64,000 nt of DNA from Harriotta raleighana (Eukaryota). Of the stretch, positions 5,041-60,773 are shown in pieces; position 1 is the stretch's first letter; the number at the start of each line of letters is the position of its first letter. The stretch is from assembly GCA_050575255.1 (NCBI GenBank), contig JBNZDD010013709.1, positions 2,572,220 through 2,636,219 of the forward strand, read 5' to 3'. Both the position numbers and the translations under genes were made by a program. The notes beneath the pieces were generated by a model. The model was not told the origin of the DNA and did not search any database. It saw only the letters and a list, made by a program, of their open reading frames with translations.

Positions 5041-5044
5041 TCTA

Positions 5045-19368: not shown

Positions 19369-20174
19369 GAACCGGCTCAGTCCCAGGTGGCAAAGAGCTC
19401 TCTGCTCTGATCACAGGAAAAAGCTGAGTAAAGTTACATAACACTGACCGCTGTGCACAGACAGGTCCGGCGTCCAACAGCAGCTACAGACAGACAGACA
19501 GACAGAGAGAGAGAGAGAGAGACATAAATAAGCTACAGTAATTGAGCTACCGAGGGAGGAGGAGTCGCTGTGGGTACAGCCTATTATTGCCTGTGGAAGA
19601 TTGATTCACGGCTTGTCATCTGTCCCAAGAAGGACAGAGCGAAGAGAGAGAGAGAGAAACACAAGCCAAAGGGGTTGAACTTTCTACCCAGTAGAAGTTA
19701 ATAGAGAAAGTTTTTTTTTCTCTCTCTCTGTCTGTCAGTCTCTCTCTCTCCCTCGCCTCCTCTGTTCAACTCGTGTTCGCCCTGGGAAACGGCTGTACAA
19801 TCCTCAGCAGTGTTCCTGAGACTGTATTAGTCGGCTTTCAGTTGTTTCCGGGTTTTTACTGATCTCTAGCACTTGACTCAACCAAGGACTTTGTTTTGAC
19901 ACATAGAGAAGCGATAAGAGAGAGAACGCCACTGAATCGCAAGCAACAGAAACACTGAAGAGTTCACAGAGAGAGAGAGAGAGAGTGTGAGTGAGAGTGA
20001 AAGAGCGACAAGGGCAGTGTGTGTGTGTGTGTGTGTGTTTGAGGAGGGCAATCGAGAGAAAGTAAGAGAAGTCAAAGGAACAGACAGACAGACTGATAGA
20101 CAAGTCACTTTGAAATATTACCTGATTGAATTCCGACTCTCAACTCGGAACAAAAAAACCCCCCACACATCATC
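19369..20174 (+). promoter_or_regulatory. EPAS1 core promoter and 5' UTR (exact TSS not determinable)
   Basis: 806 nt with no ATG on the + strand ending at the start codon. Raised CpG, no transposon fragments, (AG)n/(GT)n/(ACAG)n microsatellites, TATA-like CATAAATA 19523-19530, pyrimidine tract 19711-19765. Confidence 0.75.
19795..19827 (+). promoter_or_regulatory. Iron-responsive element (IRE) in the EPAS1 5' UTR
   Basis: GTACAAT-C-CTCAG-CAGTGT-TC-CTGAG-ACTGTAT. CAGUGN loop at 19808-19813, unpaired C at 19802 five bases 5' of the loop, upper stem CTCAG/CTGAG, lower stem GTACA.T/A.TGTAT. Nearly identical to the mammalian HIF2A IRE as recalled (GUACAAUCCUCGGCAGUGUCCUGAGACUGUAU). Confidence 0.92.
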
Positions 20175-20200
20175 ATGACTGCGGATAAGGAGAAGAAAAG
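20175..20200 (+). CDS. EPAS1: Coding part of exon 1 of hypoxia-inducible factor 2 alpha (endothelial PAS domain protein 1)
   Basis: ATG ACT GCG GAT AAG GAG AAG AAA AG|GTAAGA translates MTADKEKK(R), the N-terminus of vertebrate HIF-2alpha as I recall it. The 26-nt coding length and phase-2 intron match the known gene structure. A at -3, strong AAG|GTAAGA donor, and a HIF2A-type IRE ~370 nt upstream. Confidence 0.95.
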
Positions 20201-21741
20201 GTAAGAAAGGATAAGAAAGTAACAGAGTGTTTTAGGTGCTGCTGGAGGCTGACAAGTGTTAGTTAAGAAATGACATTTATTACAATGATTCATAGATTCA
20301 ATGATGTATCATGTGTGTATCTATCCCTCCATTGGGAGTCGATTGTTGTTGATGTGTGTACAGTATATATATATATATATATATAGATATATACACTAAA
20401 AGGAAGGGGTATCGCGATTTTATGCAACTGGCTTAACTTGAAGCCTGAGTGTAAATAGATAGAGTAGCTGCAGTTTGAAGCAGAATAGTTGTTTTTATTC
20501 TCGCTGGCTTTTCAGAGTTTGTTGAAACTTTCAGAAGAACTGGAATTCTATTTTGTGCTGTGGATTGATTGATTGATTGATTGATTGATGGATGCCTAAT
20601 GTTATTGGTGTTGTATGTATGTATTTATGTATGTGTTTAGTTGCATTATTAGTATTATTATAGTATGATTGATTACCAGCTTGTAATCAGCCGCTGGTGT
20701 CCCCTGAGCGCGTCGCCAAGGTTAGAGCTGCGATGAAAACACAGTCAATCACCGTCTCCCTCCCTCCCTCCCTCCCTCCCTCAGTCACTCAGTCACTCAC
20801 AGCAGATTCACAGACTCGCTCAGCTTCTCTCTCTCATTGCCTTCGTCGTCTCTTTGCTGTCAATGCGCCGCAGCCACGCGTTGAGAGCAGGTGTCACTCG
20901 TTCTGAAGACAACAGTTGTTTCCTCTTCGGATAGGCTTTGGGACGCGTTATTGCTATTAAATGATCACAGTGAGTGTGAGGTCCCATTCTGCCGAGGCCT
21001 GACTGACTGTGACTGACTGACACAGGCCGGAGTTCAGAGGTGGACTCAGGTGATGTCAGGCAGCCCCAAGCCTCAGCTCCAATGCGAGTGGATGTTTCAC
21101 TGCAGGTTTTTTCAACAACTGTGTGTTTTGCAAACACACTCTGAAACAACACGGGCTTGTCTGTCACTCGTTTAAACTCACAAATTGTCAATGTATGATA
21201 TTATTATTCCTTTTTTTTGGGGGGGGGGGAGGGGGTGGGTGGGGGATGTCGAATATTGGGTTTAATAGGTAAAGGGTTATTGTTAGTAACTGGCATGTTC
21301 TGAGTTAGTTAGTTAGTTAGTTAGTTACTGTATCTTTTACAAGGGAACAAAATACAATTGGGTCATGATGAGGATGATGATGGTGAGTGTTTGAATGTCG
21401 CTCTTTTGTTATCTTCACCTGAGGAGCTGTTCAGCTGGGATTGAAGTCCACAGGGGATGGTCAGCTTGGGACCTCTGAAAGCGCTCAACAGAACATACCG
21501 GAAAGTGAATTGACTATAGATTTTTTTATTTTGAAAAAGAGAAAGTTTTCTTTTTAAATCCCCGGTTTCTTTCCAGTGGGAAAACGGGGGGGGAGGTATT
21601 TTCACACACGCCCCGATTTTTCTATACTGTATATATATACATACATATACATATATATATACACAGTGACATAGATGAGTTGGATTGTGAAATGTACTTG
21701 ATTTTCAGTCATCACCGTGTCCCCTGCGCCTAGCGGTGTTT

Positions 21742-21773
<32 letters not shown>

Positions 21774-21799
21774 GCAGGCGGGGGGGGGGGGGGGGGGGG

Positions 21800-21842
21800 N
21801 NNNNNNNNNNNNNNNNNNNNNNNNNNNNNNNNNNNNNNNNNN
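21800..21842. other. Assembly gap flanked by poly-G
   Basis: Run of N between G homopolymers. Confidence 0.98.
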
Positions 21843-22626
21843 GGGGGGGGTCAAAGCGCTCCTCCACGCGCATATATTTGCAAAGTAGCCGGGACGTTCA
21901 GCCGGGACTAAAATTTGTCGGCAGACACCGGCTGGGAGTNTCCACGCGCATATATTTGCAAAGTAGCCGGGACGTTCAGCTGGGACTAAAATTTGTCGGC
22001 AGACACCGGCTGGGAGTACAACAGTAAAGCCACAAACAGTCCCGAAGACAGTGGAACCGATTTGACACGTCTAAGGCTGCAGCGAATTGTGTGGAACTGA
22101 CTGACAAGCCAGTTTGTGTGTGTGTGTGTGTGTCCCCCCCCCAAACAAAACCTACAGCCCAAGAGATCGTAGCTGTTTGGATTGACAGTAACAATCTGAT
22201 GTGGTAACTGGGAGGCTGGGTGCCCAACNTGTGGAACTGACTGACAAGCCAGTTTGTGTGTGTGTGTGTGTGTCCCCCCAAACAAAACCTACAGCCCAAG
22301 AGATCGTAGCTGTTTGGATTGACAGTAACAATCAGATGTGGTAACTGGGAGGCTGGGTGCCCAACTTGCCGGGAATGGTGTTTGCTCGCTGCTGGATATA
22401 TTGAAAGTTGCTGCTCTTCTCCCCAATCATCTCAGGGTGACCTGGTGGGGTATTAGCAGGTCCTTCGCCAAAGGTTTGATGGCGGCTGCTGATAGCACGA
22501 AACCTGGTGGTTTACGCCCGGGCATCTCTCCTACCGGAGAGACCCTACAGTCGGCTCCTCTTCCCCCCCTTTGGGTGAAGCCGTTCGTTCACAAGTCCCG
22601 TTGACACTAAAAGAAATATTCGTTGC

Positions 22627-22719
22627 ATCGTGCAATATCTCAATATCGTGCAATATCTCAATATCGTGCAATACCTCAATATCGTGCAATATCTCAATAT
22701 CGTGCAATATCTCAATATC
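22627..22719 (+). repeat. 18-bp minisatellite, 5 copies (ATCGTGCAATATCTCAAT)
   Basis: Units start at 22627, 22645, 22663, 22681 and 22699; one T>C change in the third unit. Confidence 0.95.
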
Positions 22720-23414
22720 TGACTCCAACGCCAGCGATCCGCATTCTGCATCATTGCAAAGACGTTTCAGCCGAATGCATTTGATGCAATTACCGTACTT
22801 TCGCCCACATATATACGTACAGTCAATTCACCTTATGGTATATTCTGTGAAGCGCTTTGAGACACCCTTAAAAAAAAGTGAAAAGCACTATATCAAATGT
22901 AGCGTTTATTATTTTTATTATTAGTAGTTTTCAGTGGGTTACTGGAACACGTGAAACTCACCACAGCTTCTAATGTACGTGGGCAATAGACCTGGTGAAC
23001 TGCAATATTGTGTAAATAAATTGATCAGTGCTTAGTAACAAGATCTACTTGATGTTAATTGGAAGTGACAATGTAATTATGATTTTTTTTCCCCTTGCTC
23101 ATAGTTCGATTTGTCACAAGTAATTCAATTTCACTTTCTCTTCAAAGTATTTCTAACCGCATAAATAAATCTGACTTTTCAGATTAAAGGGGAGATGTGT
23201 GTGTGAATAACATTTAAAAGATTATGTGAGAAGATTTGATCATTTATATAAACCACATGAAATTTGTTCCAAATTAAAAGTTCGGTTAAATATTTGTCAT
23301 GTACTACTTAACAGTGTTAATACTGTAACAGGATTATATCCTTTAAAATGATAAATGAAAGGAAGGACTCTTTAAATTAGAAATCTGAATTGATGTCATT
23401 AGTTTTTGGTAGAT

Positions 23415-23960
23415 AATCCTGTAGTTTAGTGGTTAGAGCATACGCCTTGAAGGTGAGAAGACCTGGGTTCGATTCCCGGTCAGGATGAAATATTGGGCAA
23501 ATTTCCTTACTCCACATGACTCTGTTAGTAAAAACTAGGAACTAGTTGTTAGTTGATTGGTGGTTTACTTTTCTGAGGGTAATAATCCCTTCAAACTAAT
23601 AACAATATTAATTTGGTCATTCAGCTGTTTGTAGGATACTCTGCTGTGCGTAAATAGCTTCCTACCTTCCTCCCATAAAATAAATTAATTTTACAATGCG
23701 TTCTGTGAAGCACTTTGATATGGTGCTTTTTACATCTGCTAGACATCTTAAAGCACTTCACATAAAATACTGTAAAGTGAATTGATGTATACATGTGGGC
23801 AAAACATGACATCCAATTGCGCATACAATGTCCCACAAAGTCATAGATTGAAGTGACCAATTTTTTTGGAGAAATTATTAGGCATTTGGAGTAAGAAAAC
23901 TTGTCCAAGGAATTGAACCAGCTGTCTCGAGTGTTGTAACCATTGAGCTACAGGACTCTG
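23415..23960. mobile_element. Two tRNA-derived SINEs tail-to-tail (+ 23415-23720, - 23720-23960)
   Basis: Head tcctgtagtttagtggttagagc..gggttcgattccc on +; reversed head cattgagctacaggactc at ~23941-23958. Confidence 0.82.
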
Positions 23961-26799
23961 TTGCAGGCTGATCAAATCAGTTGTGATTTTTCTGCACCAT
24001 AAAATACCAACCCGACCCTGGTCACAGACATTCTGCTGTGAAATTTACCAGTCAACTAATTACATAACTAGAGTGAAACAAAATTCAAAAGTTAGCTGCA
24101 AAGTGTAATTGTTTTGTGCAGCTATAACTTATTTGTAGAATCTCTCGTTGATTCATTCAGTTGACCCGCATCTTTACATTACAATTATAAAGCACCTTTC
24201 AAGTTCTAAGGACATCTCATAGACATCATTAGCTTGGCACTTGTATCAACAGTGTAAATTGTTTTTGTATTGGTACAGGCTTTTATCTGAACCAGACAAG
24301 ATATTGGTATAGCCCAGCAATGGCTGGTTTGTACATCTATATGAATGTATACTATTGATGCATCTTTCTTTCTTCTCACAAATCCAATGGTGGTTATTTA
24401 AACAAGGCAGAGATTAAGAAACCATTACACATTTTACCCATTGTTAGCAAAGAGATGAAAAGATCAGTCAGTCTATTCTGTAATGCTATAGTTAGCCATC
24501 GCAGATAAATAGGCATGCATGTGTGGGCGTTAGTGTGGTTGCAAACAAACATAATTTTATATACTTTATTTTTACTGAGTGACCCATAGCAAAGGTCCGC
24601 TTTTATTATGGGATTCTCTCTATTACAAAAATCTCAGACTGTTACTCACTCAATATCAGTAACACAATGAAACTTCTGTATACAGTTTACACAACTGCCA
24701 GTTTGTTGTTACAGATATTATAAGAAGTTTGTTTTTAAGCAATATGTTGAAGATCATTCAGGATATGTACCTCTTTTGTGAAATTGTGAGGAAGAATAAT
24801 AAAGAAATTGGTTAACTACAGGGAATTGTGTCTATATGAAAGGGCTAGAGGATGTTTGTGTGCTGAAATCAAATCAATTGTTCTTGACATCTTACACATC
24901 TTTTATTAGGATGAAACCAACATTAACCTAATAAAATCACATCTTTCCAGGAAGTGGTCTCATTGTGAATTAGTTAGGTATCTCAGTGTCACCCTATTAC
25001 AAGTATTATATTTTATTACTATTGGAAATTCATCAACAGCAAGATACATTTATATTAGATCTTTTACATTGGGAAGCGCAAAGCGCTTCACACAACTCAA
25101 GGGAGCCCGGGGGTGATGTAGGCAGGTGGGTGGGGGGGAAGAAGAAATGTGGTATGAAGGACAGTCAAACATAAGGTTTTAGGCAGGTTTTGAAGGTGGG
25201 GAGGGAATGGGGAATGCATGGTGGGGGAACCATAGGATGACATTCCAGAGAGCTAAAAGTTCACTAAACGTTGGTTAACAGATGTAGGGTTAACAAAAAG
25301 GGACATTACATAATGGATTCAATGTAATAATTAACACATTGAAGCTGTTGCTCCTCCATAATAACTGCTTTTGTTTCTCTATGGTTTTATTCTTTGCTGG
25401 GACACACCGGGTGAACAGCATGGGAAATCGTGAAAGGAAAACAGTGTCCATTGCAGATAAAGTAGTGAAGAGGTCTTTGCTTGACCTTGGGAGTACTGAA
25501 TTTTTCCCTGGTCCAGGTGACTATGTTTTGATAAGGCATAAGGATTTTTGGCCAACATCCCTTCAGTAAATCAAATTGAGAGAGATTCCGCTATTCAGGA
25601 GATGCTTGACATTTTCAACATCCAACCATAATTAGATACTTTTCACAAATGAATGGAGTGTTAGGGGAAGGAACAGTATTAATAAAACATTTGTGACAAA
25701 TTTGATTATATTTGTTTGATGTCCCTATCACCCACCATGAGCTAGAAAGGAGGAGCACTGTTCAACTTTAGGATGGGTCTGACAAAATTATTGTACCTTT
25801 GCTGGCCATTCTCATCACTAACACATTGAAAATGAAAAACTACACATCTATGATCAACTGCCTGTAGAGAACATTGCTTGCGATACTTCATCAGATGTTG
25901 TGATACTTTAACATTCAAAAATCAAGAGTGACAATTTATTCTTCGAATCATTTTTTAACATGTGAATTGTGATATAGTGGCACTCCAGATTTTGTTGTTA
26001 AGATGGAAAAAAATGCATGACCATATATGTTTCTCTGCCCAGAGTATAACACAATCTCTTTCCTGTCATCAGTCTCGCTCTTTGGACTTACTTTGTGCTT
26101 TTCTGACTTTTGGAAATATGATTTGCCATTTGTGAATATAGCTACTTCGATCTCCTTTATCAAACTGACAGCAATGAACATTTGTTCATTTCATATGTAA
26201 GTTTTGCCATTTGATCATTGCCCACTAGAACATCAAACTTGCTTCCAGACTACATTTTGTTAAACAAAATCATTATTGAAAACTGTTTACCTGAGGTTTG
26301 CAGAATTATTTTTAGATATTCAGTGACTTGTTTGGAGATGAATATTACCACAAATCTGAGTCCCATACCAACATTTGAAAGTAAATTGGATAAATCTTTG
26401 CTGAAAAATAAGATACGAATTTGACCATTTATATAAACCACATGAAATTTGTTCCAAATGAAAAGTTGAGTTAAATATTTACTATGTATTATTCGGAATG
26501 CAACAGATTACATCCATTAAAATTCCGAATGAAAGGAAGGAAGCTTTAAATTAGAAATCTGAATTAATGTTATTACTTTCTGTAGCTTCGTGCTTAGAGC
26601 ACTCACAATGGACAAGTTTCCTTATTTGCTCACCTAGCAGTAAGTAGGAACTCTGTTGTTAGGCAATTGGCGGATTGCTTTTCAAGGGATAATAATCCCG
26701 TAAAAAAAAAATTGGTCACTGAGGACAATCCACAACTGTTTGTGGGGTACTGCTGTGCGTAAATAAATTGATTGTCGGGTTTTGCCAGTCAACTCAGCG

Positions 26800-27596
26800 A
26801 CTTGCATTTATATAGTGCCCTCCACACCTGGCAGCATCTGAGCGCTTAACATTGGCAGAACTTGAGGCCAAGCAGGGGGAAGGGGAAGGTGACCTTCAGA
26901 ATGGTTGAAGGGAAAGGTTTTCAGGCATGACTTGAGGATGGCGAAGGAGAGGTTGAGGTGAAGTGGTTGAGGGAGGGAGTTCCAAAGTTTCAGGGTGTAA
27001 TGGCAGAATCTGCCGCTGCTGGAGCTGAGCATTCGGGCGACAAATAGGAGGCTGGACCCAGTCGTGTGGAGGCAGCGGGCACTGCTTTAAGGAGAGAGGA
27101 GATTAGAGAGGTAGGTGGGTGCCAAGCAGTGGAGGGATTTGAAAAACTAGAGTGAGGATCTTGCAGTCAATCCACTCTGACAGGGAGCCCGTGAAGTTTG
27201 GCAAGGACTGGGGTAATCAGGGTACAAAGTTTGGTTGGGTGAGAATGCAGGTGGCAGAATTTTGGATGAGTTGAATTTTGTGAATGGTGAAGGAGGGCAG
27301 ACTGGTGAGGATGGTATTGGAGTAGTTCAGCCGACAGGTGACAAAGGCATGGACGAGGGTTTCGGGAAGAGGTATTGATGGAGAGGGGCAATGTGGCGGT
27401 GATGGAAGAAAGTGGTGCTGGAAAATATATGTGGCAGGAAGGAAAACTGGGGATTGAACCTGACCCCTAAATTGTGCATTGGTTCACAGAGTTTGAAGGA
27501 CACATTGGGTAGGTTGAGAAAGTCGGAACCATGGGATAGAAGATTTTGACAGGAGCCAAAGTATATGGCTTCTGTCTTGTTGAAGTATAACTGCAA
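26800..27596 (-). mobile_element. L2-clade LINE 3' fragment
   Basis: QLYFNKTEAIYFG..NLGVRFNPQFSFLPHI and ..LWNSLPQPL.. in the reverse ORFs; terminal stem-loop near 26805-26850. Confidence 0.85.
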
Positions 27597-30399
27597 TATA
27601 TCCAGTATAACTTGACAGGATATTCTGTGAGGCGCTTTAAGGCATCTCTACAATGTGATAAGACGCAATATCAAATGCTTATTATTGTTAAGATTAAATG
27701 GCACAAAGAAAGAATAGATAACTCCAGCGGGAAAACTGGCATCAGCACAAATGAAATGGACCAAATAACCTCCTGAGCTGTAAACGTTCTATGATCTCAG
27801 GCTAATATATACAGTGATACAAGCTGCTTTGTTACACATTATTTACATATATTGAGGGTCTTGCAGAGTTTTTGTGTTAGAGTGTGATTGCTTTTAGGCA
27901 GGGTTCCAGGTTTCTTTGAGGGGAGATTATTGAGAGCTGGCTTTGGACCACTGTTAGTCATTTTCCCAGGCTGTCCTACAAAGTTCTAGATGTTTAGCAT
28001 TATTTACCACAATAAGAGTCGCGTGTAAAGGAAAGTCATGGTTTAAATTTGGTCTGTAGGGACATTGTGGCTTTGGAATCTGTTTAAAAGAATGCTGCTC
28101 TCTCCAGCACACTTTGCTGCCAAGGTTTTAAACAACTGCTAAAATAGTAACAGAATAAGATGAACATTTAGCTGTATGTTGAGTGCCATAGTGCGTCACC
28201 TGGAGGGAATCAGGGTGCTCCTTTATAAAGGCTCTATAATTTTGATAGCGTATTTTCTCTCGTTATGGGACATGGTTAGCAACAAAGGCCATTTGGAATC
28301 AGTGATATCATGGTTTCAACACGTGGAAAATAAAATTGATTATTGGTACCAATTGGTAGAGTTTCTGCATTGAGTTGTTTGGGGTTGGTGGGGGTGGGGG
28401 GAGGTTTGGGGGAGTGAAAGAGAGAGATGGGGGTGAAAGAGAGAGATGGGAGGGAGAGAGAGTGTGGAAGGGGGGAGGGGGAGAGGGGAGAAAGCATCCA
28501 GCAGAATCTGAAGTTTTTCAAGTACCACCGAAAGTATAGACTAATTTAGGTTCTCCGAGATGCTGTTCGGTATGAAGGGCACTATATTAAATGGAAGTTG
28601 TTGTTATTATAGGTGCTTAACTTACATATGAAAATGTCCAAGTCTTGTTGAGCACTTGAAGGAAGATAAATGCATTCCATAACAAGGAAAATAACTTGAG
28701 CCGAAATAATTAGACTGACAGGAACGAAGCCAAAGCAAATGTTATTGTGGATTCATTTTCAAGTAGTAAACTATAGCTGAGTAGGATTTGGTTTTGATAA
28801 AAATCCTTGTGTTTGATAACGGGGCTTATCACACATTCGAGATGTCTCAAAGCTTCACAGATTTTGGTATAGAGCATAGGTACTGTACTGTATTTTGATC
28901 TTCAGAGCAAGAGAAGGGGGGAACAAAAGCCAAAGCAGGTCATAGCAATGAAAGAATAATCATAGCTAGAATGTATTAACTAAACAGTTTACACATAAAC
29001 ATACCTTGGTTCACAAACTGTTGACTTTTTAGCATTTTTTTCATCATTATTATTACCTCTGTCGAGATGCATACATTTGCTTGATATCAAACTATGCAGT
29101 GAATGCTCTGTTAATTTGATCTTAATTATAACAATAAAGTAGCTGGCACATGAAGCAGCAAAAGCTGCAAATTCAACACTGCAAAAGCTCATCAGATGTT
29201 TTGTTTGACATGAAGCAAAGTTGCTTTAGTTGAATTTTTATGTCTGATCTTTAATAAAAGAGGTGCCCTGGTTCTGACCTTCACTGTCGTGGCAAAATAT
29301 GTGTAGTCAGCAATTTTCTTTGATTTGCAAAATGTTTAGGGTGTTCCCTTCAAAGGATCCAGACAACAATATTCAGAACCCTACCACTGTTTAATTATTC
29401 AAGCCTCTGCGTAGAAGATTGGTATCTAATTCCTGCAGCTTTTTGCATTTGTTTTCGATTGTCTGCAGGCAGGTACTTGTTCAGTTTCCCCCGAAAGTGT
29501 CCCCCACCCACCCGACCCCCACCCCCACCATCCCCTCAGTGTTGCTTTGAACCACCCCCTATTAATAAACGTTCTTTTTTAAAAAAAAGATCAAAGACGC
29601 ATCCCACTGAACAGAAGTATTCCTTCCATTCTTGCAAGGGAAATTGACGAACAACTACGTATTTTTGAAGAACAACACATTTGGCAGGGTGGGGGGAGAG
29701 GGGGGTGGAAAATGGTATTTGCTTTGTTGGAGCAAGTCTTTTGTTTCTTGAGTTTGGCCTGACCCTGGTTTGAGGAAACCTGATTAAAAATAAGTGTGGT
29801 AGGAGTTGACCTGGCTGCGGCTTTTTCCGCTTTTTATTTAAAGAATACCATTTCCTTACTCTCTTGCCAATATAGGGGAAGTGAGGTGGGATGGCTTGGG
29901 AGAGGGAGGTGTTCAAAATACGGTATTTGCTACAGGATTCGCAAAGGATTCGTAAATATAGTCAAACCATGTCTGCAACAATGCCTCAGGTGATTTGGCC
30001 AAATTGACCTTTAGTAAGGATGGCCAGTGAGCAAGGGTTCATTGATGTGCCATGTACACTTGTAGTATTCTGCAAGGAACCATGAAGTGAAATGGTCAAT
30101 TTTATTTAGAGAATTGTTAGCCTGGACACCAGGATAAACTCCCTACTCTTTTCGAATTCTGCACAAGACCTCGTTTTAAAGTTTTATCTGAAGGGCAACA
30201 CCTCCAGCAAGGCAACATATCCCCCATTTCTACTTTACTATCAGCCATTGTGTTAGTGAGTGGACAGAAGGAAGTGCAGGCTTAGAGGTCATGGGGTAAA
30301 GAATCGCTGTTGGCAAACTCAAGCAAAGCTGGCATTTGACAAATATATTCTACAGTTGTGTTTTACAATGCTGACGAGCCGGAGAGGGTGGTGATGTAA

Positions 30400-31035
30400 G
30401 TATGGTCAAAGAGGATGTTTTCCAGGCAGGATTTGAAAAGGGGGAGAGAGGGGGCAAAGCAGAGGGATTAAGGGAGAATGTTCCAGAGTTTGGCAGCATA
30501 GTGACTGAAAGTGTGATCTCCGATGGTGGAACGGAGGGTGTGAGGGACGAGCAGGTAACCAAGCAGGATGCCAGTGCCAGTTGAATGGAGGCTCCAGGTG
30601 GTGGTTTGGGGAGTGAGGAGGTAGGAGAGGTGGGGACTTGCCAGGGGATGAATGGATTTGAACACGAGTGTGATGGGGAGCCAGTGGAGCCTGGGCCAGA
30701 ACTTGGTGAGATGTGTAACGGAGGAAAGACAGCTGGGAGTTGAACTGAACATCGGACTCAGATTACTGAGTCGGAGTCCCAGGGAGGTTGAGGAGTTTAG
30801 AACCACAGGATTGAAGGCGTTGATGGGAGACAAAGGCTTCCGTCTTGTCTATGTTCAGCTGCAGGAAGTTTACACTCATCCAGGCCTTGATGTCTGCCAG
30901 ACAAGCTGATAGAACATCGGTGAACCTGGAGTTGCTACTGGATCAGGCAAAGTAGATTTGTGTTTCATCCGCATAGATGTGGAATTTTAACCCGTGTCTG
31001 TGGACGACATCACCCAAAGGGAGCATATAGAAAAG
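30400..31035 (-). mobile_element. L2-clade LINE fragment
   Basis: Reverse strand reads ttccacatctatgcggatgaaacacaaatctac (FHIYADETQIY) and ..RLHWLP..LWNILP. Confidence 0.8.
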
Positions 31036-32394
31036 GAAAAGAAGAAGGCCAAGCATATCCAACAAAAGAACAGAATTACTCCAGAGTCCTGATAAATACT
31101 GTCCAAATTAATTCGCCATTGCTGTTGGTAGGATCTCTGAGCATAAACCGCTGTATTTACGTGCAAGATAAAGTTACAACACTATAATAATTTTCTTTGA
31201 TCTACAGAGTATGAATGTGAGTTCTTTTTACTAAACTCTATTCTCAATCTACACTTTCCTCATAACATTAGATTATTTTTCTTCAGATTGGGACACAATT
31301 CTGTTATTATTCCTGCTTGTGTGTGAGCATATTTTGTTGCATTCTGGTTACGCGGAGCGCTTTGTTTTGTTTTTGTATCCTGTTCACTCCTCTTGCGAGT
31401 TGTTTGCTGACGTTGGCAGTAAAGCTGATTTGCACACAGGATGAGGAGATATCAATGAATTTAAGTCATTCTTGACTGTCTGGATTTTACTCTTGACCTG
31501 ACGTACCAGAGGCATAAAAGAGGAAAGACAACCAAATTGTTTCTCCAGCCATGCCTTTTCAATCGTAGTCAAGATTAGACCTACTGAAGATAAAGAAGCC
31601 TATGCAAGGGATGTGAAAAATTCTGAAATGGTTTGTGTTGTGAGTTGATAGGTAATTGTTTATGACTGCTGATCATATCCCTGTTTGGTATACGATAATA
31701 ATAGTAATTTCAAATAAGACCACATCATATATAGTGGTTGAGAAACGTGCATTTAGCATGATTATTGAAGATAAAGCTCTCTTCCCAAACAGTAAATTTG
31801 AGTGGAGAATAACCAGTATGTTTTCAGTCATCAAATCACTCAACAGTGTTTGTAGTAATCAGGATTTTAAAAAAATTCTCTTCAACACCTCTCTTCGACA
31901 TCCATTTCACGTTGTTATACCAGCTGTCCTACCTTTTACAGCATTTAGTGCCTTTTATCATTCACGTTGCAGACTTGATTGCTTTTGTGTTTCTTTTGAA
32001 AAGCAGTCATTTTTCCATTGCAAAATGGCAAAGTTTGCCATAAAATTTTCCATCGTTTTTGACGAGAGGAATTTTAAAAAAGAATAGTAATGGATCTGCG
32101 GTAAATTAAAACTCGCACCTGTGAAAAGAGAGAAGTGGCAACTCTGTTCGATAAGAACAGTACACCTATCCTCCACCTCTGTTCCTATTTGACAAATATG
32201 GCGTTCTGCTCTGTGTACAACACATTCCTTCATCGGGCTCAACACTATTCTCCTCTCTTGAGTTTGCAAATGGCTTATTTGTAACTGAAAATTATACCAT
32301 TTGTAAGAATGCTAGAGGAACACTAGATTTAGGTCACAGAAACAGATGTACCATAGGGTGGACCAGGTTTATCTCTTTGGTTATTGATAATAAT

Positions 32395-32805
32395 AATTCT
32401 TCAATTGATCAATATAGCACCTCTCAAGTCGGGAGGACGTCTCACAGCGCTTCTCAGTGGTATACTGTAAAGTGGAATGACTGTGCGGTTTTGTGGGTGA
32501 ACTAGGGAAAGAATTTATGCATAGCAATGGTGCACAAATGACCTTGGGGTAATTGACCAAAGTTATTTTGGGGGATTGTTGGGCGGGAGACCAGAAGAAA
32601 CTCCCTTCACATTTTGAATAGTTTCATAGGATCTTTAACATTTGCCTAGGTTTAACGATTCATTCGAACAACAGCACCTTCAACAATTTTGCATAGCTTC
32701 AGTCATTTATGTCTCCTTTTAGACTATAAATAAGTTCCAAATCTGGATGATTTGAATGCACAACCTTCTCACTTGGAGGTGAGAGTTCTACCAACTGAGT
32801 TGAAC
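32395..32805 (-). mobile_element. Deu-domain SINE, near full length
   Basis: Reversed head (caaccttctcacttggaggtgagagttctaccaactgag), Deu core (ggtttaacgattcattcgaacaacagcacct) and L2-like tail. Confidence 0.75.
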
Positions 32806-34034
32806 TGACAAGTGGGTCAGCATAGAAACAATGTCAAGCTTGCTCAACTACTTTATGGGGTTCAATGGTAGGGCAGTATGCTTTCTCTCAAACTTTATTC
32901 TAATTTGTCTGCTAGAGGGAATAGTCATCGTCCAATACATTATCTTTGAATTCATTGACTTAAACACCTCTTTCTGATCACCACTCAACCTCTTTAGATC
33001 TTGGGAACATAATCCAAGTTTACACAGCTTCTCATCATAGCAACATCCCCTCATCTTGTGTATCATTTCAGTGAATCATTGTTGGACTTCCTTCAAGGCT
33101 TGTATATCTTATGTTAGGTAGAGTGCAAAACAATTGAACACAATGCTACTAATCTGTCTGGCTCACATGGGTAGTCCTAGCAGGAGAAGTCAGCTTGTCC
33201 AGCCTAGCTCACCCAAGTGAGTCATCAAAAGACTGTCAGCACCCTGCAACTGAAGGCTGATGATGCTCAACTGTTTCAGGAGGGGAGCAGAGGAGAGAAT
33301 TGCGCCCCCCCCAAAGAAAAATTACCAGGTAGTGCTCCTAATGGCAATCTAGACACTCAGATGACCAGATCTACCCCCACCTACCCATACACACAAACAA
33401 GTTAGAACAAATTATTTAAAGTGATATGAACAATGAGGCAACTTTTCAGATCTCCTCCTATGGATAATTTGACCTGAAAACTTTACAAAGGATCTAGTAC
33501 AGACCTATTTGTGCATCTTTGCTTAGAATTGTGTGGAACATTGCCCCTCTGGTTGAAGGTATGAAGTATTAACATAAAGTAGTATGGTGGAGAAAGGCAG
33601 TCAATGCTTGCAGTCTAACTTCATCAATGAAACTTGGCTCACTTATTTTTGAGCAAAACTCTTCATAGAAATCCATTTATATCACTATTAAAGAAAGCCT
33701 CAGAGTAATTGCTGTTTTTTTCTTTTTGCTATAAAGAATCAAATTCTAGTCTATCTCAATGCTAACTTTCTGATAGATTTTTAAAAATAAAACGTGATAA
33801 CAATATTCTGAGGTCTAAAGTGTCCTTCTTGCCTTGCGGGCTGCCAAATAGTTTTAGTGTATAAGAGAGAGCCTTCATTCTCAAACCAGAATAAGTGTTT
33901 CCTGTATATCAATATAAACACGCACCATCAATAAGTCATTTTTCAGCCATAAATATTTACAGTAGATTAGAAGTGGTGCTTTTTATACAAAGTAGATTTT
34001 GTTTTCCAAATTAAGAGCATTCCAATTCTCTCTT

Positions 34035-34335
34035 CACTGGCCCAGTGTGGAAATGGCCTTGATAGACCAGGAAGATCCCAGGTTCAGTCCCTGGCCTATG
34101 CTGAGTTATCTGATCTCATTTTGGTGCCAGTCGGGGTATTAGAACTGGTCTCACTGTTCCCAGGCTAAGGGATAGGAGACGAGATTAACCGCTCCTGATC
34201 ACTATCTGCTGTAGTCATCTCTATGGGAAAGTTACCACGAGGGAGAGAGGAGGGATGGACATTTGGTGAGGATAGTATCAGACTTAACCCTGACAACTCA
34301 ATAGCCTGTCTCCAATCTGGCTTCACATAAGGAGC
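34035..34335 (+). mobile_element. Old tRNA-derived SINE-like repeat of a third family (second copy ~59285-59525)
   Basis: gatcccaggttcagtccctggcctatgctgagttatctgatctca contains a B-box-like motif and matches gctcagttagctgatctcag at 59291. Confidence 0.55.
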
Positions 34336-36364
34336 ACAGCTATTGCTTTTCAATACTGTATTTCTCAAATGTGGGAAGCTCCTTGTTCAACCTCCCAAAA
34401 GGAACAATGATTGTCATATGAAGGATTTGCAAAAGAGTTGGATTCTACTTCCTTTTCTTATTAAAAAAAACATAATAATGGAGTAAACAAGTATTTTTTA
34501 AAGTAAATTCAATTGTTTTGTAGTAAAAAAAAACTACATTTATTTAGCACCATTCACGTAACCAAACAGAGCATGAAAGCACCTTCACAAATACAATTGG
34601 ATAGGAATGAAAGTTAATGGCGTATGATCACACATGGAGCTAATCTTCATCAGTGAAGTTGCATTGACAGCAATCAGTTCAATAATCGATTACAGGACAA
34701 CTAGAAGCTTGATTATAATGCAGGTTCAATTATTGCGCAGTTGAGTGGCCGGGGTGGGGTCTGGAGCACGATATTTACATACTTAAAACCATCCAAAATA
34801 TCCACACCCAAGCTTCATCAGCATTCCCACGTCACCAGATCACTGCACAGTCACTTTCTGCGCAATATGTACAGGAAATGCTGTTGCTCTGACCTAATCT
34901 CGGAATTCCCCCATTTTGAGTGGCTGTCAGTGTTTCACTCACACCCCACCCTCCCCTCCTACTGCACTGTAATAGGCTTCGGCATATAGGGATCATTTTA
35001 TATTAGGAGGGGAGTATTCATCAGGATAAGGGATGTATAGGTGTGCGTGTGGGTAAAGTTGTATCAAAATTAAACTGAAAGAAGCAGTGTAAACTCGTTC
35101 AGTTTTGAGAGGGCACACGCAGCAAAGCTTCTTTATGACATCAATCCCATTTTCGCTTAGGTAGTTGATTGGTAATGAACACTTTAGGATATTATAGAGG
35201 GAAGCGGTGACAAAATCAACTTGCTATCATTCCCTGATCAATTACAGAAAGTTCTGAAATACAACCCGGAATTTGTACGTGTTGTGAATCCCCTCCCAGC
35301 AATAGGAATCAGTGCTACTGAATTTGACCCCTGTGGCTGAACTTTGCTTGTTAGTTGAAGTTCACACAGACTTTTTACCAGGCCTGCCCAGAAAGCTGTC
35401 TCCTCTAACTTCCTGTGCACTTATATAATGTTTCCTTGCCTCTTGCGTAACCGGTCTTTGTCTGGGTTGGAGCTTGAGTTGTGTTTGTGGATTGCAAAAG
35501 CTGTTGTGAAAATGTAGCCAGCAGTAAACATTGCAGCATATCACAGTACACATCATATCGTATCCGATTGTACTGATAAACTGTACTAGCAATTCTAAAT
35601 AGTGTTTCTTGAACAAAGAAATAAGTTTGATGTCATCTAAATGCAACGTTATATTTGACACGTACTATGTTGTTTGTTACTGAAACCATGTTTTGAAACT
35701 GGCAATCAGAGGACCACCAGTTTGTATTGTGTTGCACAAAGATGCTTCACTGCATGTAAAACTTTACACAAATGCACTCATTTCTATTTTCATCCCACTG
35801 TTCTAAATTTTTGAAGCTAACGGAGGTTGTTTGCAATTTCCCATCTTCAATAGAAACAGTAGCCCATTTAAGTTCAAGCTCCCCCCACCCCCTTCAGCTC
35901 ACACACAGACACACAGAAACACGGGGACTTTCAACTTGTAAGACAAGAATGACACTCAGGTATAACACTGGGGGAAGTGAGACGTTTCTGGGGTACAATG
36001 CAAAACGAAAAGGGAGTTTCTCCCAGTGTGCTGGTCAACAATCCTACAGATAAAAGAATTGTTCATTTAATGGTTGTTTGTAGTTCCTTGCTGTGCTCAA
36101 GTTATCCGCAGTTCTAGAAATTCAGTCACCACACTTTACAGTACTTATCTGTGAAAGGCTTTGAGATGCTTTGCATGTTATAGGCAGTATAAAAAAGAGT
36201 GATGTGTTAAAAATGTATAGGGGTTGAAAGTGCAATGTTCTCAAACAGAAAGTTTCTGCACTGATAACAAGTTGTGACTTTTGAGTAATAGTGTGCGAAT
36301 CACTACTCAATTCAACTAACATTTTAGGTTAGTTATAGATCCTGCAATTTCCAGGAACTTTGAA

Positions 36365-36740
36365 CTCGCAATCTAGGCTAGACACTCAAATACCATCCTG
36401 GGGGAATGCTTTGTCGTCAGATGTTGCCATCCTTCAGAAGAAATGTGAAGACATGTTCTTGTCTGCCTATTCAGATGGCCATCAAAGATCTTAAGGCACC
36501 ACTGAAAAGCGAAGAGAGTTTCTCCAGGTTTCTTGGCCAACAATCCCCCAGATAAAGTTGATCATTTCACCTTATGACTATTTGTAAGACATTGCCGTGT
36601 GCAAACAGGCTACCATATTCACCTACAAAACACTTTTAAATCAATGCACTTTTAAGTATTTTATATCCTGTGAAGCGCTTTGACATATCTCAACTATACA
36701 TAAAGGCATCATATTAAATATAAGGATGCTTATTATAATG
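36365..36740 (+). mobile_element. Deu-domain SINE
   Basis: aatctaggctagacactc..gtcagatgttgccatccttcagaagaaatgt..gtctgcctattcagatgg, then the shared 3' segment and tail. Confidence 0.72.
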
Positions 36741-36800
36741 ATCATTATAAAAAAGACAAAAGTGTCTGGTTTGTAAAGATGTGTTTATGACCAGTATTTT

Positions 36801-37114
36801 GGAGTCCTGTCAGTGGTTAGATCATTTGGCTTACAAGTGTGAGACCTGCGTTTGAATCTAGGAAGGTCAGAGCAAAACCTTGGGCAAGTTTCCTTACTCC
36901 ACACGCCTAATAATAATCCCTCCAAAAAAAAAACAATTAAAAAATTGGTCATTTCAATCCACAACTGTTTGTGGATACTGCTGTGCACAATAGGCTGCTG
37001 CATTTCGCCAACAAATACACAATGTATTCACTTTACAGTATATTCTGTGAAGCACTTTGAGACGTCTAGAAGATATGAAAAGTGCTATATCAAATGCAAG
37101 GATTATTATTATTA
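36801..37114 (+). mobile_element. tRNA-derived SINE with L2-type tail
   Basis: Closely matches the copy at 60440-60767 in the opposite orientation. Confidence 0.9.
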
Positions 37115-37944
37115 ATAAAGATACAAGTACCTTTAATGAAACCCTCAGCCCTAATGGCCAAATAACCACAATAGTTTTTAACTAGTTACTTTTCTGAACT
37201 TAACGGAGTTTCATTTGAGATATTTGCCAAAGTGTATTTGTTGCATTCATTGTTACTCCTGTTTTGGGAATAATAGATTGCAAAATAACACATAAATACT
37301 GTACACATCAAACCTACATGGTCATGCACCAAACTGACTGGTAGTCTGGCTGTATTGGAGATTCATTTTCTAATGCCCATCCCAATGATCGGGCCACATG
37401 ACTTGCATGAGGGAGATTGAGAGAAGCACTCTTCCCTGATACATATCAATGGTTTTCAAGGGTAGCCATCGCAGTGCATCATACACCAATAATACTATGT
37501 CAAAATGTACTTTGTTAGCCTTCTGAAACTTTTTATAACCAGGTAGGCATGTCCTTGAATTTAGTGAATGCTTGCTCATCACTCTCCAATGACACCTACT
37601 TGACCATATAAGGACAATTTCTTTGAAGGTTGGCAAATTTATGGACATTGATCAGAAGACTATCTTATTCTCTGTTGCTCCCACCATTTATGGAATATAG
37701 TGATGCAAATGTTTCCGTTTAAGAACTCACACGGCCAAAGTTCAGCTGCCTAAACAATGCATTCCACATTCCCAAAGCCCTCGACAGCTACAATGTTTTG
37801 ACTTTAGAATCAATATAAACTCAAGCAAAGATACTTCCAAAACATGTAAGCTGCTGTTTTGGCACTTAAAAAGTTGAATTCACAGTGTTTCATAATTGGT
37901 TGCTTGTGGCAAGAGGTATGTTATAACATATCACAAACTTTACC

Positions 37945-38416
37945 TCATCCTCGTCCTCACTTTCAAGGTCATTCATGGCCTTGCCCCCACCTATCTCTCT
38001 GTCCTGCTGCTTCTCTATCAGCACCCCCCCTCCGTTCAGCAGACTCAGGCCTGCTCCGCGTCTAGCTCCCTAACCGCCCAACCATCGGCAGCTGGGCTTT
38101 CAGCCTCTCTGCTCCCACACTGTGGAACTCCATCCCGCAGCCCTTCCAACTTGCTTTCTCCTNTTTCAGCCTCTCTGCTCCCACACTGTGGAACTCCATC
38201 CCGCAGCCCTTCCGACTTGCTTTCTCCTTTTCCTCCTTCAAGGCCGGTCTCAAGATCTTCCTCTTCGAACGCGCCTTCGACCCCCCCATTAACTCTTCCC
38301 CCTCTCCTTCCCCCTACCCCGAACCACTGCTCTGGTCGCGACCTGACTATTTAGCGTTTTGGGACGTACTCCCGACGTGAAAGGCGGTTTAGAAGTCTAA
38401 TTTTGTTGTTGTTGTT
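37945..38416 (+). mobile_element. L2-clade LINE 3' end
   Basis: ILVLTFKVIHGLAPTYLS.. and tail agcgttttgggacgtactcccgacgtgaaaggcg..(ttg)n. Confidence 0.88.
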
Positions 38417-39110
38417 TATGTGAATATCCGAAGGAAAACCGTGAGTGACATTGATGCTGTGGGTGTTTCGTCCACAAGTTACACAGCCAAAACACTTCAT
38501 AGTATATTCTGTGAAGCGGTTTGAGACGACTCAACGACGTGATGTGATGCTATATCAAATGCAAGAATTTTATTATTATAATACAGTTTCTGTGTTCTAG
38601 GGAACTTTAAAACCCTAGCATTTGACAACACCAGTGGCCATTTAACCTGTGTCACTCTAAACACAAAGTGGGAAGTTCCTGTTTCTCTGAAAATAAAATG
38701 TTCCTTGTTTTTACAACAGCCAACATAGAAAGGCTGTGCATGTCAGCCTCAGACACTGGCAGGCTCCCATTCAAAATCTGATAAGCTCTTTCTCTTGTAC
38801 TTATTTACAAACTGATGGGACAATCAAAGGCATCGGTAGCGGTTCATTGGAATTGCTGTCCGAATTCTAAGTCAGATCAAGGTGCCTCAGCCTCCCTAGG
38901 GTGAAGTGTTCTGTAAAAACCCAAACTCAAATTACTAGCAAAGGTCAGACTCTGTATCAATAAATGCCATTCGTGTTTTTATAAAGTAGAAACTTTTCAA
39001 CATGTATTTTTTAAAAAATATTTTAACATTTTATCTTTAACCTTTTATCTAATCCTAGTTGTGCATCAACTATTTTCAGGTTTAAAATGCTCCAAGTGCT
39101 ATCCCACGTG

Positions 39111-39320
39111 AATCATAGAACTTTGGAGCACAAAAGGAGGCCATTCAGCCCATCGAGTCTGTGCCGGCTATTTGAAAAGAGCTATTCAAAGTCAATCCCA
39201 CTCTCTGGGTCTCTCCCCATAACCCTGCAAACTTGTCCTCCCCAAATAACCATCCACCTCTCTTTTAAAAGTTGTTATTGAATAGCTCACCACCACCCTT
39301 TCAGGCAATGCATTCCAGAT
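39111..39320 (-). mobile_element. CR1 LINE 3' end (another copy at ~39648-39875)
   Basis: aatcatagaa..gcacaaaaggaggccattcagcccatcgagtctgtgccggct is the reverse complement of the CR1 end at 56320-56381. Confidence 0.82.
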
Positions 39321-40924
39321 TTGAATGCATGTACAGAAATGTTGGACTGCTATAAATCCTTGGATTCTATACAGTGCTTGGAACTTTGAAATACTGTATC
39401 AAAAAGTGCCTACTGGTTGTTTCTGTGAAGTGTAGTGACTGTATTTATAGGGTGTATGGGGCAGCATATTTGCAGATATCAATTATCCCATAGTTGCGCA
39501 TAAAATAAATGATCAATTGAAATGGAGGATTGCTGACCAGAATACTGGGAAAAGCACCCTTCTCTTCAAATAGTTTTTATGAGAACTTAGAGCCCAACTG
39601 GAGCAGGGAATCGGGTAAAACAGGGAGTATCCATAGACTCATTGGATATTATAGAACAGAAGGATGCCGTTTGGCCCATCATGCCTGTGTTGGCTCTTTG
39701 GAAGAGCTACCCAATCAGTCTCTCCCTCACTTCCACCCCCGCCACCCTCAACTGTTTCCCCATATTCTTGCTAATTTTTCTTTTGTCGCGTATCTAATTC
39801 ACTTTTGAAAGTTGTTGTTAAATCTGTTTCCACCACTTTTTCAGGCAGTGAGTTCCAGACTACAACACCTCTCTTAGATAAAGAGTCCTTTTTCCCACCA
39901 TGACTGTAACCAAGAGTGAAATATTCTGATACAAAAGCCCTGAAAAACGAAACAAGTCTTTTTTAACAAAAAGTTGAATAGAACAAAATCTACATTGGAT
40001 ACAGATGTCAGCATAAACTGGTGTGACTTGCAGCAAGATCTAAACTCCTCTGGTGCGTCTGCAAATTTTAGCCAGTGTTGATTGATTGCATTTTGTTTGG
40101 TCTGTTGTGTGGCTGGTACACACGGAAACCTAGCGCCATGCTGAAGCACATCCAGTACAGATGATTGTTCTACATGCCTGCCCACCCACGCATGGAAATT
40201 TCGCTTTGATTACACAACAAGAATAGGATGAAAATTGTGACATGTGATGTTATCACGGTAATAATTATTTAATTATTGTGCCAGTTCAGTAACTGAAGAC
40301 GAGCTGCCGAAGGCGGCCAGTTACTATATCATTGGGCTTGCTGACGGCAGCTTTCGTTTGATGGCAAGCGAGATCCTGGATTTCCTCAAGATAAAAATCA
40401 AAGCTCAGCTGGTATCCTGCAAACTGGCATCCCAACATGAAATCTTCCTGATCAATTGCTCCTTCACATTGTTGCCGTTTATGGGAGCTTCCTCAACAAC
40501 AACTTTCACTTAGATAGCCCCCAGCACTTTCTTCTGTGCAAAGTGGCTTGACGTATCACTTACACTTGGCATTAATTACTGCAAACACGTGGAGTATTTT
40601 TGCCCACAAAATATACAATAATTTCACTGTACTGTACAGTATATTCTGAAGTGCTTTGAGACAGCTCCATGACCTGCTAATGCACTATATCAAATGCAAG
40701 GATTATTATTTTTATTTACTAAAAGCACATTGTGAAGCTTAACCATGAAAAGATGCCATGAAAATGCAAATAATTTTTCACCATTTATATTTTCTCATGG
40801 AATTTCTGCTTCAAGCTCTATTTTTCCTGATTTCAACTTCAATGAGACTCTCCTTTGTGTGTGGCATTTATTGTTATTCAAAGAACTAAATGCTTTCACT
40901 CTGAACAGAAGTGTGATGTGATTG

Positions 40925-41236
40925 TAATAATATAATAATAATCCTTGCATTTTGATATAGCGCTTTTCATGTCTTATAGACATTCCAAAGTGCCTCACAG
41001 AACGTACTGTAAAGCAAATTGACTGTATATTTAAATGCAGAAGCCAATTGCGCACAGCAGTGTCCCACAAAAGTCGTAGTTTGAGATGACCAATTTATTA
41101 TAGGGTGTTTTTGGGCGGATTATTATTAGGCGTGTGGAGTAAGGAAAACTCACCCAAGGTTTCGCCCTGACCTGCCTGGATTCGAAACACAGGTCTCACA
41201 CTTGTAGTGCTCTAACCACTGAGCTACAGGATTCCA
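40925..41236 (-). mobile_element. tRNA-derived SINE with L2-type tail
   Basis: Same family as 60440-60767; reversed head ends ..ctaaccactgagctacaggattcca. Confidence 0.9.
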
Positions 41237-44200: not shown

Positions 44201-44439
44201 ATTAGAATTGTGGGCTGAACGAGAATCATTTAAACTTACTGAATGGAGCAGCATAATGTTGATGCATTGTAAGATTTGTAAGATCTGTCGACATTCACAG
44301 GAAAAGAAGCTGGAACTCTCCTGCTCTTCACAAATCAGAGGTGTAAGTGAACATCACTTGGTTTAAAAGTACTGTAGTTTGAATTTCCTTTCCTTTATCA
44401 CCACTGCATGATGGAGGAAGTTCTACTTCCTCTGTCTTA

Positions 44440-44830
44440 ATAATAAGCCTTTCATTTGATATAACGCCCTATCACATTGTTGAGATATCTCAATGGCACT
44501 TCACAGGATATACTGTACAGTAAAGTGAATTAACTGTGTATTTTGTGGGTGATGCATGGCAGCCAGTTTGTGCACAGAGGTGTTCCACAGACAGCTGAGG
44601 AGTGAGTGAACAATTTTATTTGGAGAATTGTTGGCCAGGACAACAGGAGGAACTAGCATCTCTTTTCGAATAGTTTCATGGAATCTTTAACATCCACCTG
44701 AACAGGCAGATGAGACCTCGGCATTAACATCATGTCCAAAAGCCAACACCTCTAACAATGCATCTCCCCACACCCTAATCCCCCCCCCCCTCCTCCCACT
44801 GCATAATTGGAGTATCTGCTTAGAGTATGG
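44440..44830 (-). mobile_element. Deu-domain SINE
   Basis: ggaatctttaacatccacctgaacaggcagatgagacctcgg..aacacctctaacaatgc Deu-like core preceded by the reversed tail. Confidence 0.75.
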
Positions 44831-48167: not shown

Positions 48168-48289
48168 TTCAGAAAATTTGGCACAATCTTAAATTGAACT
48201 ATTTGAATCACATTCTTGCATGAAGATGGATTATAAATATGTAAGCTATTATTATTTTTAAGCATGAGGAATTTTTGTCCAATTAAAAC

Positions 48290-59354: not shown

Positions 59355-59406
59355 TCAGCGCCTTGGGACGTCCTCCTGACGTGAAACGCGCTCTATAAAT
59401 GTAATT

Positions 59407-59440
<34 letters not shown>
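59355..59440 (+). mobile_element. Minimal L2 3' terminus with long (TTG)n tail
   Basis: cagcgccttgggacgtcctcctgacgtgaaacgcgctctataaatgtaattt followed by about 11 TTG units. Confidence 0.88.
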
Positions 59441-60767: not shown

Positions 60768-60773
60768 CTAGTA

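What the first reader, a model, noticed from the sequence alone, without database searches (positions are those of the whole stretch)
19795..19827. HIF-2alpha iron-responsive element with an atypical loop/upper stem in a probable cartilaginous fish
Seen: C-bulge + CUCAG + CAGUGU + UC + CUGAG. Known: the mammalian EPAS1 5' IRE binds IRP1, links iron to HIF-2 translation, and has a single 3' bulged U (CUCGG/CCUGAG). Here there is one extra nucleotide and a G>A change. It can fold as a perfect 5-bp stem with an 8-nt loop (CAGUGUUC) or as a hexaloop closed by G-U with a 2-nt CC bulge. Inference: iron control of HIF-2alpha may date to the jawed-vertebrate ancestor, and this variant could be missed by strict IRE pattern searches or differ in IRP1/IRP2 preference.
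Basis: partly seen in the sequence, partly recalled or inferred. Interest (0 to 1): 0.7.

Follow-up and report, generated by a model that had tools for sequence, protein, structure and literature searches.

The report
Chimaera HIF-2alpha IRE with enlarged loop
A chimaera (cartilaginous fish) keeps the RNA hairpin that puts HIF-2alpha translation under iron control in mammals, with one extra base that is predicted to enlarge its loop; this likely dates the hairpin to the first jawed vertebrates, but binding of the iron regulatory protein is untested.

Summary
The element is real. Window 19795-19827 is the single-copy orthologue of the EPAS1/HIF-2alpha 5' iron-responsive element (IRE), 348 nt before the start codon of an EPAS1 gene from a chimaera (90% identity to Callorhinchus milii, 69-74% to sharks and a ray). 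It matches a fish EPAS1 IRE at 34 of 36 columns, while the flanks are at chance. A contig of one run and raw reads of a second sample support the extra base. Only the 1-nt insertion is unusual. The predicted fold is an unbroken 5-bp stem under an 8-nt loop; the hexaloop/CC-bulge form costs 6.3 kcal/mol more. My version of the SIREs rule misses it. Rfam scores it under its cut-off, but also the ordinary fish copy. The genome has IRP1 with the tested contact residues, IRP2, and canonical ferritin and TfR1 IREs. Most likely it is a working, perhaps weakened, IRP1-bound translational brake (0.62). No RNA data, binding data or second chondrichthyan UTR could be obtained. New variant of a known element; interest 0.35.

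The parts
19791..19826 (+). Conserved island holding the EPAS1 IRE
   Evidence: 34 of 36 columns identical to L019; flanks at chance
19795..19801 (+). IRE lower stem, 5' strand (pairs with 19821-19827; A19800 opposite C19822 is a mismatch)
   Evidence: pair probabilities 0.62-0.96
19802..19802 (+). C8, the bulged cytosine; it competes with C19803 for G19820
   Evidence: P(19803-19820) 0.66, P(19802-19820) 0.32
19803..19807 (+). Upper stem 5' strand CUCAG; A19806 (A12) is shared with frog and zebrafish
19808..19813 (+). Canonical loop CAGUGU (C14, A15-G16-U17, G18, U19)
   Evidence: sequence; Rfam alignment
19814..19815 (+). Two unpaired bases 3' of N19; the five listed bony-vertebrate copies have one here. 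The inserted base cannot be placed exactly within the U/C run
19816..19820 (+). Upper stem 3' strand CUGAG
   Evidence: pair probabilities 0.97-0.98 for four pairs, 0.66 for the basal pair
19821..19827 (+). IRE lower stem, 3' strand
19369..20174 (+). ATG-free stretch before the start codon, inferred to hold the 5' UTR; transcription start unknown
   Evidence: 0 ATG against a mean of 7.3 in shuffles, 0 of 1000 shuffles with none; longest ATG-free gap on the + strand of the window
20175..20200 (+). EPAS1 exon 1 coding part (MTADKEKKR, last codon split), followed by a GT donor at 20201
   Evidence: same nine residues as C. milii isoform X1, P0121; in phase with exon 2 at G000:C13709:2644180
20201..64000 (+). 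EPAS1 intron 1 (about 51.8 kb, runs past the window end)
   Evidence: no further HIF-like exon found in the window; exons 2 onward at C13709:2644180-2684959

Best explanation
This is the chimaera orthologue of the EPAS1 5' IRE, and it likely still lets apo-IRP1 repress HIF-2alpha translation when iron is low, through a predicted unbroken 5-bp stem whose extra bases would be pushed out beside N19. Shown: orthology, position before the start codon, the real 1-nt insertion, and IRP1/IRP2 genes and canonical IREs elsewhere in the genome. Predicted: C8 bulge, CUCAG/CUGAG stem and 8-nt loop. Inferred: on binding, C14 pairs with G18 on top of G13-C, A15-G16-U17 enter the usual pocket, and three bases (U, U, C) bulge out on the solvent side, so the C8-to-AGU distance is unchanged. 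Affinity is likely lower than for ferritin. The element was likely present in the common ancestor of cartilaginous and bony fishes.
For: 34 of 36 columns kept against a fish EPAS1 IRE, more than the coding exon (29 of 33), with flanks at chance. C14-G18, A15-G16-U17, U19, C8 and a 5-bp upper helix, the five features of Volz 2021, are all present in sequence. N19 is solvent-exposed with no protein contact in the IRP1 crystal structures (Volz 2021), so the insertion falls at the site least likely to touch the protein. SIREs 3.0 lists an in vitro motif with two extra bases after N19 (motif 22). The ordinary fish copy also folds best with an enlarged (7-nt) loop, -7.0 against -3.9 kcal/mol for the textbook bulged-U form. 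The stem holds in longer contexts (four upper pairs P 0.76-0.97 at 37 C, 0.88-0.99 at 10 C, five assumed 5' ends). IRP1 keeps R269, S371, K379, S681, P682, R780, D781, W782 (residues named); IRP2 is present; four IREs lie behind a TfR1 last exon and two before ferritin starts. Mouse IRP1 controls HIF-2alpha translation (PMC4112806).
Against: No binding or iron-response data exist for this sequence. All five published EPAS1 copies and the six ferritin/TfR1 IREs of this genome lack the second extra base. Motif 22 has U8 and CA, not C8 and UC, so it is not this motif. The pseudotriloop form with three extruded bases costs 3.8 kcal/mol over the open loop in the model, though the fish copy's textbook pseudotriloop form costs 4.6 (the model lacks the 1-3 kcal/mol bonus cited). 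Volz 2021 stresses that mild losses of binding can abolish regulation, and EPAS1 is already a lower-affinity IRE. C8 is bulged in only about two-thirds of the ensemble. The insertion could not be dated: if recent, conservation says nothing about present function. The transcription start is unknown.
Confidence: 0.62

Rival explanations
1. The insertion is a recent, lineage-limited lesion that weakens or ends IRP binding. The rest looks conserved only because little time has passed, so HIF-2alpha is largely free of iron control in this chimaera.
For: No natural 8-nt-loop IRE appears among the EPAS1 rows read or among this genome's other IREs. The element fails the SIREs rule and loses 4.9 bits in Rfam against the fish copy. 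Loop length matters: deleting N19 lowers affinity 100-1000-fold according to Volz 2021. Recalled, not read: Jaffrey 1993 found that loop changes lowered affinity.
Against: No other damaging change has accumulated: the only substitution (A12) turns a G-U pair into A-U and is shared with frog and zebrafish. A yeast three-hybrid study found no loss on deleting N19. The insertion leaves the 5-bp spacing intact.
Confidence: 0.25
2. IRP binding forces the canonical hexaloop (G13-U20 closing pair) with a 2-nt CC bulge in the 3' upper stem, a widened form of the human bulged-U fold.
For: It keeps the six-base loop seen in the solved complexes; single 3' bulges are tolerated in EPAS1 and DMT1.
Against: -0.8 against -7.1 kcal/mol; probability under 0.001 in the free RNA. 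It leaves a lone G-U pair above a 2-nt bulge.
Confidence: 0.06
3. The hairpin is not in the main mature mRNA: transcription starts downstream of it, or most transcripts use the alternative first exon 47 kb downstream, which has no IRE motif.
For: A candidate alternative first exon at G000:C13709:2639057 matches the start of C. milii isoform X2 at 5 of 7 codons, has a GTAAGT donor in the right phase, and no C-N5-CAGWG motif in the 2 kb before it.
Against: The IRE lies inside an 806-nt ATG-free stretch running to the start codon. In the five published orthologues it lies at positions 70-180 of the mRNA record. L019 shows the same IRE, start codon, donor layout.
Confidence: 0.05
4. The extra base is a sequencing or assembly error and the true element is the ordinary fish type.
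For: The assembly has other local flaws (an N-adjacent duplicated exon), and read depth in the test was only 3.
Against: Two samples from two studies agree with the assembly (contig X1, reads of X12); at most one can be the assembly's source.
Confidence: 0.02

Closest known systems
EPAS1/HIF-2alpha 5' IRE of bony vertebrates (human, Xenopus, Takifugu, Latimeria, Danio; Volz 2021 Table S1)
   Same: Same gene and position, same lower stem with its A-C mismatch, C8, CAGUG loop and 3' CUGAG; A12 as in Xenopus and Danio.
   Different: One more base between the loop and CUGAG than in any of the five; a cartilaginous fish.
Rfam IRE_II (RF02253)
   Same: Full-length model match at 19795-19827.
   Different: 21.5 bits, under the cut-off of 30; needs a 2-nt insertion. 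The fish copy scores 26.4.
SIREs 3.0 motif 22 (in vitro IRP1 binder, after Meehan and Connell 2001)
   Same: CAGUGN loop followed by two extra bases, N19i and N19ii.
   Different: Motif 22 has U8 and CA; this one has C8 and UC and is natural. I saw only the SIREs description, not the original paper.
DMT1 (SLC11A2) 3' IRE
   Same: Also carries extra 3'-side sequence in the upper part.
   Different: 3' UTR, one extra base, weak upper stem.

Membership tests
EPAS1 5' IRE (orthology) | Lies before the start codon of an EPAS1 gene | tested here: met
EPAS1 5' IRE (orthology) | Sequence conserved with other EPAS1 IREs above its flanks | tested here: met
   34 of 36 columns; flanks 11 of 37 and 22 of 100; table rows compared by eye
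Classic IRE (Volz 2021) | C14 and G18 able to pair across the loop | tested here: met
   C19808 and G19812 present; the pairing itself is inferred
Classic IRE (Volz 2021) | A15-G16-U17 triplet | tested here: met
   19809-19811
Classic IRE (Volz 2021) | Six-base loop with a single U/C at N19 | tested here: not met
   U19 is present but the predicted loop has 8 nt; the hexaloop form is 6.3 kcal/mol higher
Classic IRE (Volz 2021) | Bulged C8 | tested here: met
   C19802 is bulged in the register with P 0.66; the rival register has P 0.32
Classic IRE (Volz 2021) | Five-base-pair upper helix | tested here: met
   CUCAG/CUGAG, no mismatch and no G-U, in the 8-nt-loop register
Classic IRE (SIREs rule) | Hexaloop with at most one mismatch or one 3' bulge | tested here: not met
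   My script of the published rule: no pass for the window, pass for L019. The server itself was not run
Rfam RF02253 | Score at or above 30 bits | tested here: not met
   21.5 bits; the ordinary fish copy also fails at 26.4
Functional 5' IRE | Inside the mature mRNA, near enough to the cap | tested here: inconclusive
   ATG-free stretch and orthologous layout favour it; no RNA data were obtained
Functional 5' IRE | Binds IRP1/IRP2 and confers iron-dependent translation | not testable with these tools
   Needs EMSA and a reporter; the proteins are encoded in the genome

The most novel reading that the evidence does not exclude
EPAS1 IREs are an enlarged-loop subclass. The base drawn as a bulged U pairs with position 12 (A-U in chimaera, frog and zebrafish; G-U in human, coelacanth and fugu) in an unbroken 5-bp stem, and the spare bases sit next to N19: one in bony vertebrates, two in this chimaera. 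The chimaera element would then be a natural, functional C8-type IRE with an 8-nt loop, a form outside the SIREs rule, and IRP targets of this shape would be missing from current catalogues.
Probability: 0.3. Interest if true: 0.6.

Novelty: new variant of a known kind. Interest (0 to 1): 0.35.

Why it matters
It moves the EPAS1 IRE from the ancestor of bony vertebrates (already implied by published tables) to the ancestor of all jawed vertebrates. It also offers a natural test of how much loop enlargement IRP tolerates and of which base is really unpaired in the HIF-2alpha IRE. If it binds, IRE search rules need a 7-8-nt-loop option. If it does not, a chimaera has loosened the iron brake on HIF-2alpha. 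Either answer is useful to iron and hypoxia specialists but modest in reach.

Tried and rejected
Expression: no RNA holder listed. Pattern scans for EPAS1-type IREs gave 1 locus in metagenome contigs (L019, a fish-type copy) and 0 in prokaryote and viral contigs, so no second chondrichthyan UTR was found. Three look-ups of earlier findings were empty. The bacterial promoter scan was uninformative. Rfam microRNA-family hits around 19620-19770 come from AG/CT repeats and are far under their cut-offs. Folding z-score as proof was rejected: z -1.59, and the reverse strand folds better. Genome-wide Rfam searches did not return this element, but scored only 87 and 82 candidates, so that is not a clean sensitivity test. 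Published orthologues from Volz Table S1 were compared by eye only, not folded or scored, which leaves the register argument unquantified for them. Not held and not read: Sanchez 2007, Piccinelli and Samuelsson 2007, Goforth 2010, Jaffrey 1993, Meehan and Connell 2001, Anderson 2013; these may already treat the register question or list a cartilaginous fish.

Full report
Observation. The simple loop motif is not enriched in the window (43 found, 44.3 expected) and the hairpin is only mildly stable (-7.1 kcal/mol, z -1.59). Rfam IRE_II aligns to exactly these coordinates at 21.5 bits, under its cut-off of 30.

Gene and animal. The first ATG after the element is at 20175 and opens a 26-nt coding exon, MTADKEKKR, with a GT donor at 20201. 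The window is G000:C13709:2572220-2636219. HIF-1 and C-TAD domains lie on the same contig and strand at 2676055 and 2684852, and tblastn places exons 2 onward at 2644175-2684959, so intron 1 is about 52 kb. The best named hits of a variable exon are all EPAS1, led by C. milii at 84%. Over seven exons identity is 89.8% to C. milii, 69.0-73.5% to three sharks and a ray, and 58.7-63.4% to five bony vertebrates. The animal is therefore a chimaera other than C. milii (inference). Three other HIF-alpha loci exist, but the EPAS1-IRE pattern occurs once in the genome.

The extra base is real. A contig of run X1 matches 19809-19960 from its first letter with no difference or gap, and three raw reads of X12 span the element at 99% or more with no indel listed. 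These are two samples of two studies. X13 laid nothing and X2 did not reach the element. Depth is too low to exclude a second allele.

Conservation. A pattern scan of metagenome contigs returned one locus, L019, with a fish-type EPAS1 first exon. Against it the window keeps 34 of 36 columns at 19791-19826 (E 3e-9), better than the coding exon (29 of 33), while the flanks match at 11 of 37 and 22 of 100. Volz 2021 Table S1 lists EPAS1 IREs for human, Xenopus, Takifugu, Latimeria and Danio. So the element was already known across bony vertebrates, and 2 of those 5 (Xenopus, Danio) have the same A12. All 5 have one base fewer between CAGUG and CUGAG. The insertion is the only unusual feature.

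Position in the mRNA. No RNA data were obtained. The 806 nt before the start codon hold no ATG, against a mean of 7.3 in shuffles (0 of 1000 had none), and this is the longest such gap on the + strand. The IRE-to-ATG distance is 348 nt here and 215 in L019. This fits a 5' UTR; the cap position is unknown.

Fold. The 8-nt loop over an unbroken CUCAG/CUGAG stem is the minimum-energy form. The hexaloop with a CC bulge is at -0.8, a 7-nt loop with one bulged C at -2.6, and the pseudotriloop with three extruded bases at -3.3 kcal/mol. C8 and C9 compete for the same G (0.32 and 0.66). The stem persists in 430-600-nt contexts at 37 and 10 C. The fish copy in L019 likewise prefers a 7-nt loop (-7.0) to the textbook bulged-U form (-3.9). 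By eye, the textbook register would set A12 against C in frog, zebrafish and chimaera, whereas pairing position 12 with the U works in all six sequences. A single bulge directly under the closing pair also fits the five bony copies; only the enlarged-loop register fits all six without a stem bulge. This is inference from sequence and nearest-neighbour energies.

Search tools. My script of the SIREs rule (PMC2896125) passes L019 and fails the window element; allowing two extra loop bases it passes with no mismatch and is the only such site in the 64 kb, both strands. SIREs 3.0 motif 22 has two extra bases after N19 but needs U8 and CA, so it does not cover this sequence. Rfam scores L019 at 26.4 bits: the insertion and the other differences cost 4.9 bits, but both copies fall under the cut-off.

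The machinery is present. Four IREs (36-43.6 bits) lie about 3 kb behind a TfR1 last exon, and two (43.6, 45.4 bits) precede ferritin-like starts (the ferritin label rests on my recall of the N-terminus). All six have six-base loops. IRP1 exons keep R269, S371, K379, S681, P682, R780, D781 and W782 by alignment to PDB 2B3X (chain numbers one lower; residues named). Other contact residues were not checked. An IRP2 gene is on another contig.

Mechanism. In mice IRP1 represses HIF-2alpha translation through this IRE and so limits EPO and iron absorption in iron deficiency (PMC4112806). I infer the same here (0.62): C8 and A15-G16-U17 stay five pairs apart, and the extra bases lie next to N19, which is solvent-exposed and contact-free in the crystal structures. 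Against this, no natural precedent was found, EPAS1 is already a lower-affinity IRE, small binding losses can abolish regulation, and the insertion is undated. A weakened or dead element is the main rival (0.25). Evidence on loop length conflicts: N19 deletion is said to cost 100-1000-fold or nothing; I read no test of insertions.

Beside the finding. A candidate alternative first exon lies 2.8 kb past the window end (C13709:2639057). It matches C. milii isoform X2 (P0001) at 5 of 7 codons, has a GTAAGT donor in the same phase, and no IRE motif in the 2 kb upstream. If expressed it would give an IRE-free HIF-2alpha mRNA, like the non-IRE ferroportin and DMT1 forms.

Literature seen. PMC8466369: parts 1-4 of 5 and eight Table S1 rows. 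10.1101/524991: parts 1-2 of 3 (its supplements not requested). PMC12230718: parts 1-2 of 5 and a supplement search. PMC2896125: part 1 of 3. PMC10351883, PMC8599799, PMC4112806, PMC4693282, PMC3836196: passages. Ten searches showed no paper on a chondrichthyan EPAS1 IRE or on this sequence; I saw listings only, several were cut at 25-30 rows, and the key subscription papers are not held, so absence from print is not established.

Verdict. A real orthologous IRE with a real 1-nt insertion. It works like an IRE by inference and fails the strict hexaloop membership tests. New variant of a known kind, interest 0.35.

Noticed in passing
L012:3057-3085 (G000:C13709:2639057): Candidate alternative first exon of EPAS1, matching C. 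milii isoform X2 at 5 of 7 codons with a GTAAGT donor; no IRE motif in 2 kb upstream. It would give an IRE-free isoform.
   Followed up: partly
L015:6277-7090 and 7452-8265: A stretch of about 0.8 kb holding one EPAS1 exon occurs twice, 1175 nt apart (215 of 216 exon bases identical), next to a single N; probably an assembly artefact.
   Followed up: partly
G000:C13371:303187-303520 (L020): TfR1 3' UTR with four canonical IREs found, two with CAGAG and two with CAGUG loops; mammals have five. A fifth was not sought beyond this locus.
   Followed up: partly
L024, L025: Two ferritin-like genes, each with a canonical 5' IRE.
   Followed up: partly
G000:C13671, C13274, C13354: Three further HIF-alpha loci; C13354 showed no C-TAD match. 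Their 5' UTRs were not read.
   Followed up: no
L033 (G000:C13627:2442938): A second, diverged copy of one IRP1-like exon on another contig; possibly a gene fragment.
   Followed up: no
window 21690-22500: Tandem repeat with N runs in intron 1; also opposite GC skews at 4001-6000 and 12001-14000, perhaps inverted repeat copies.
   Followed up: no
window 20690-21100: CpG-richer stretch early in intron 1 (13 CpG in 250 nt against a window mean of 3.7), a possible regulatory element.
   Followed up: no
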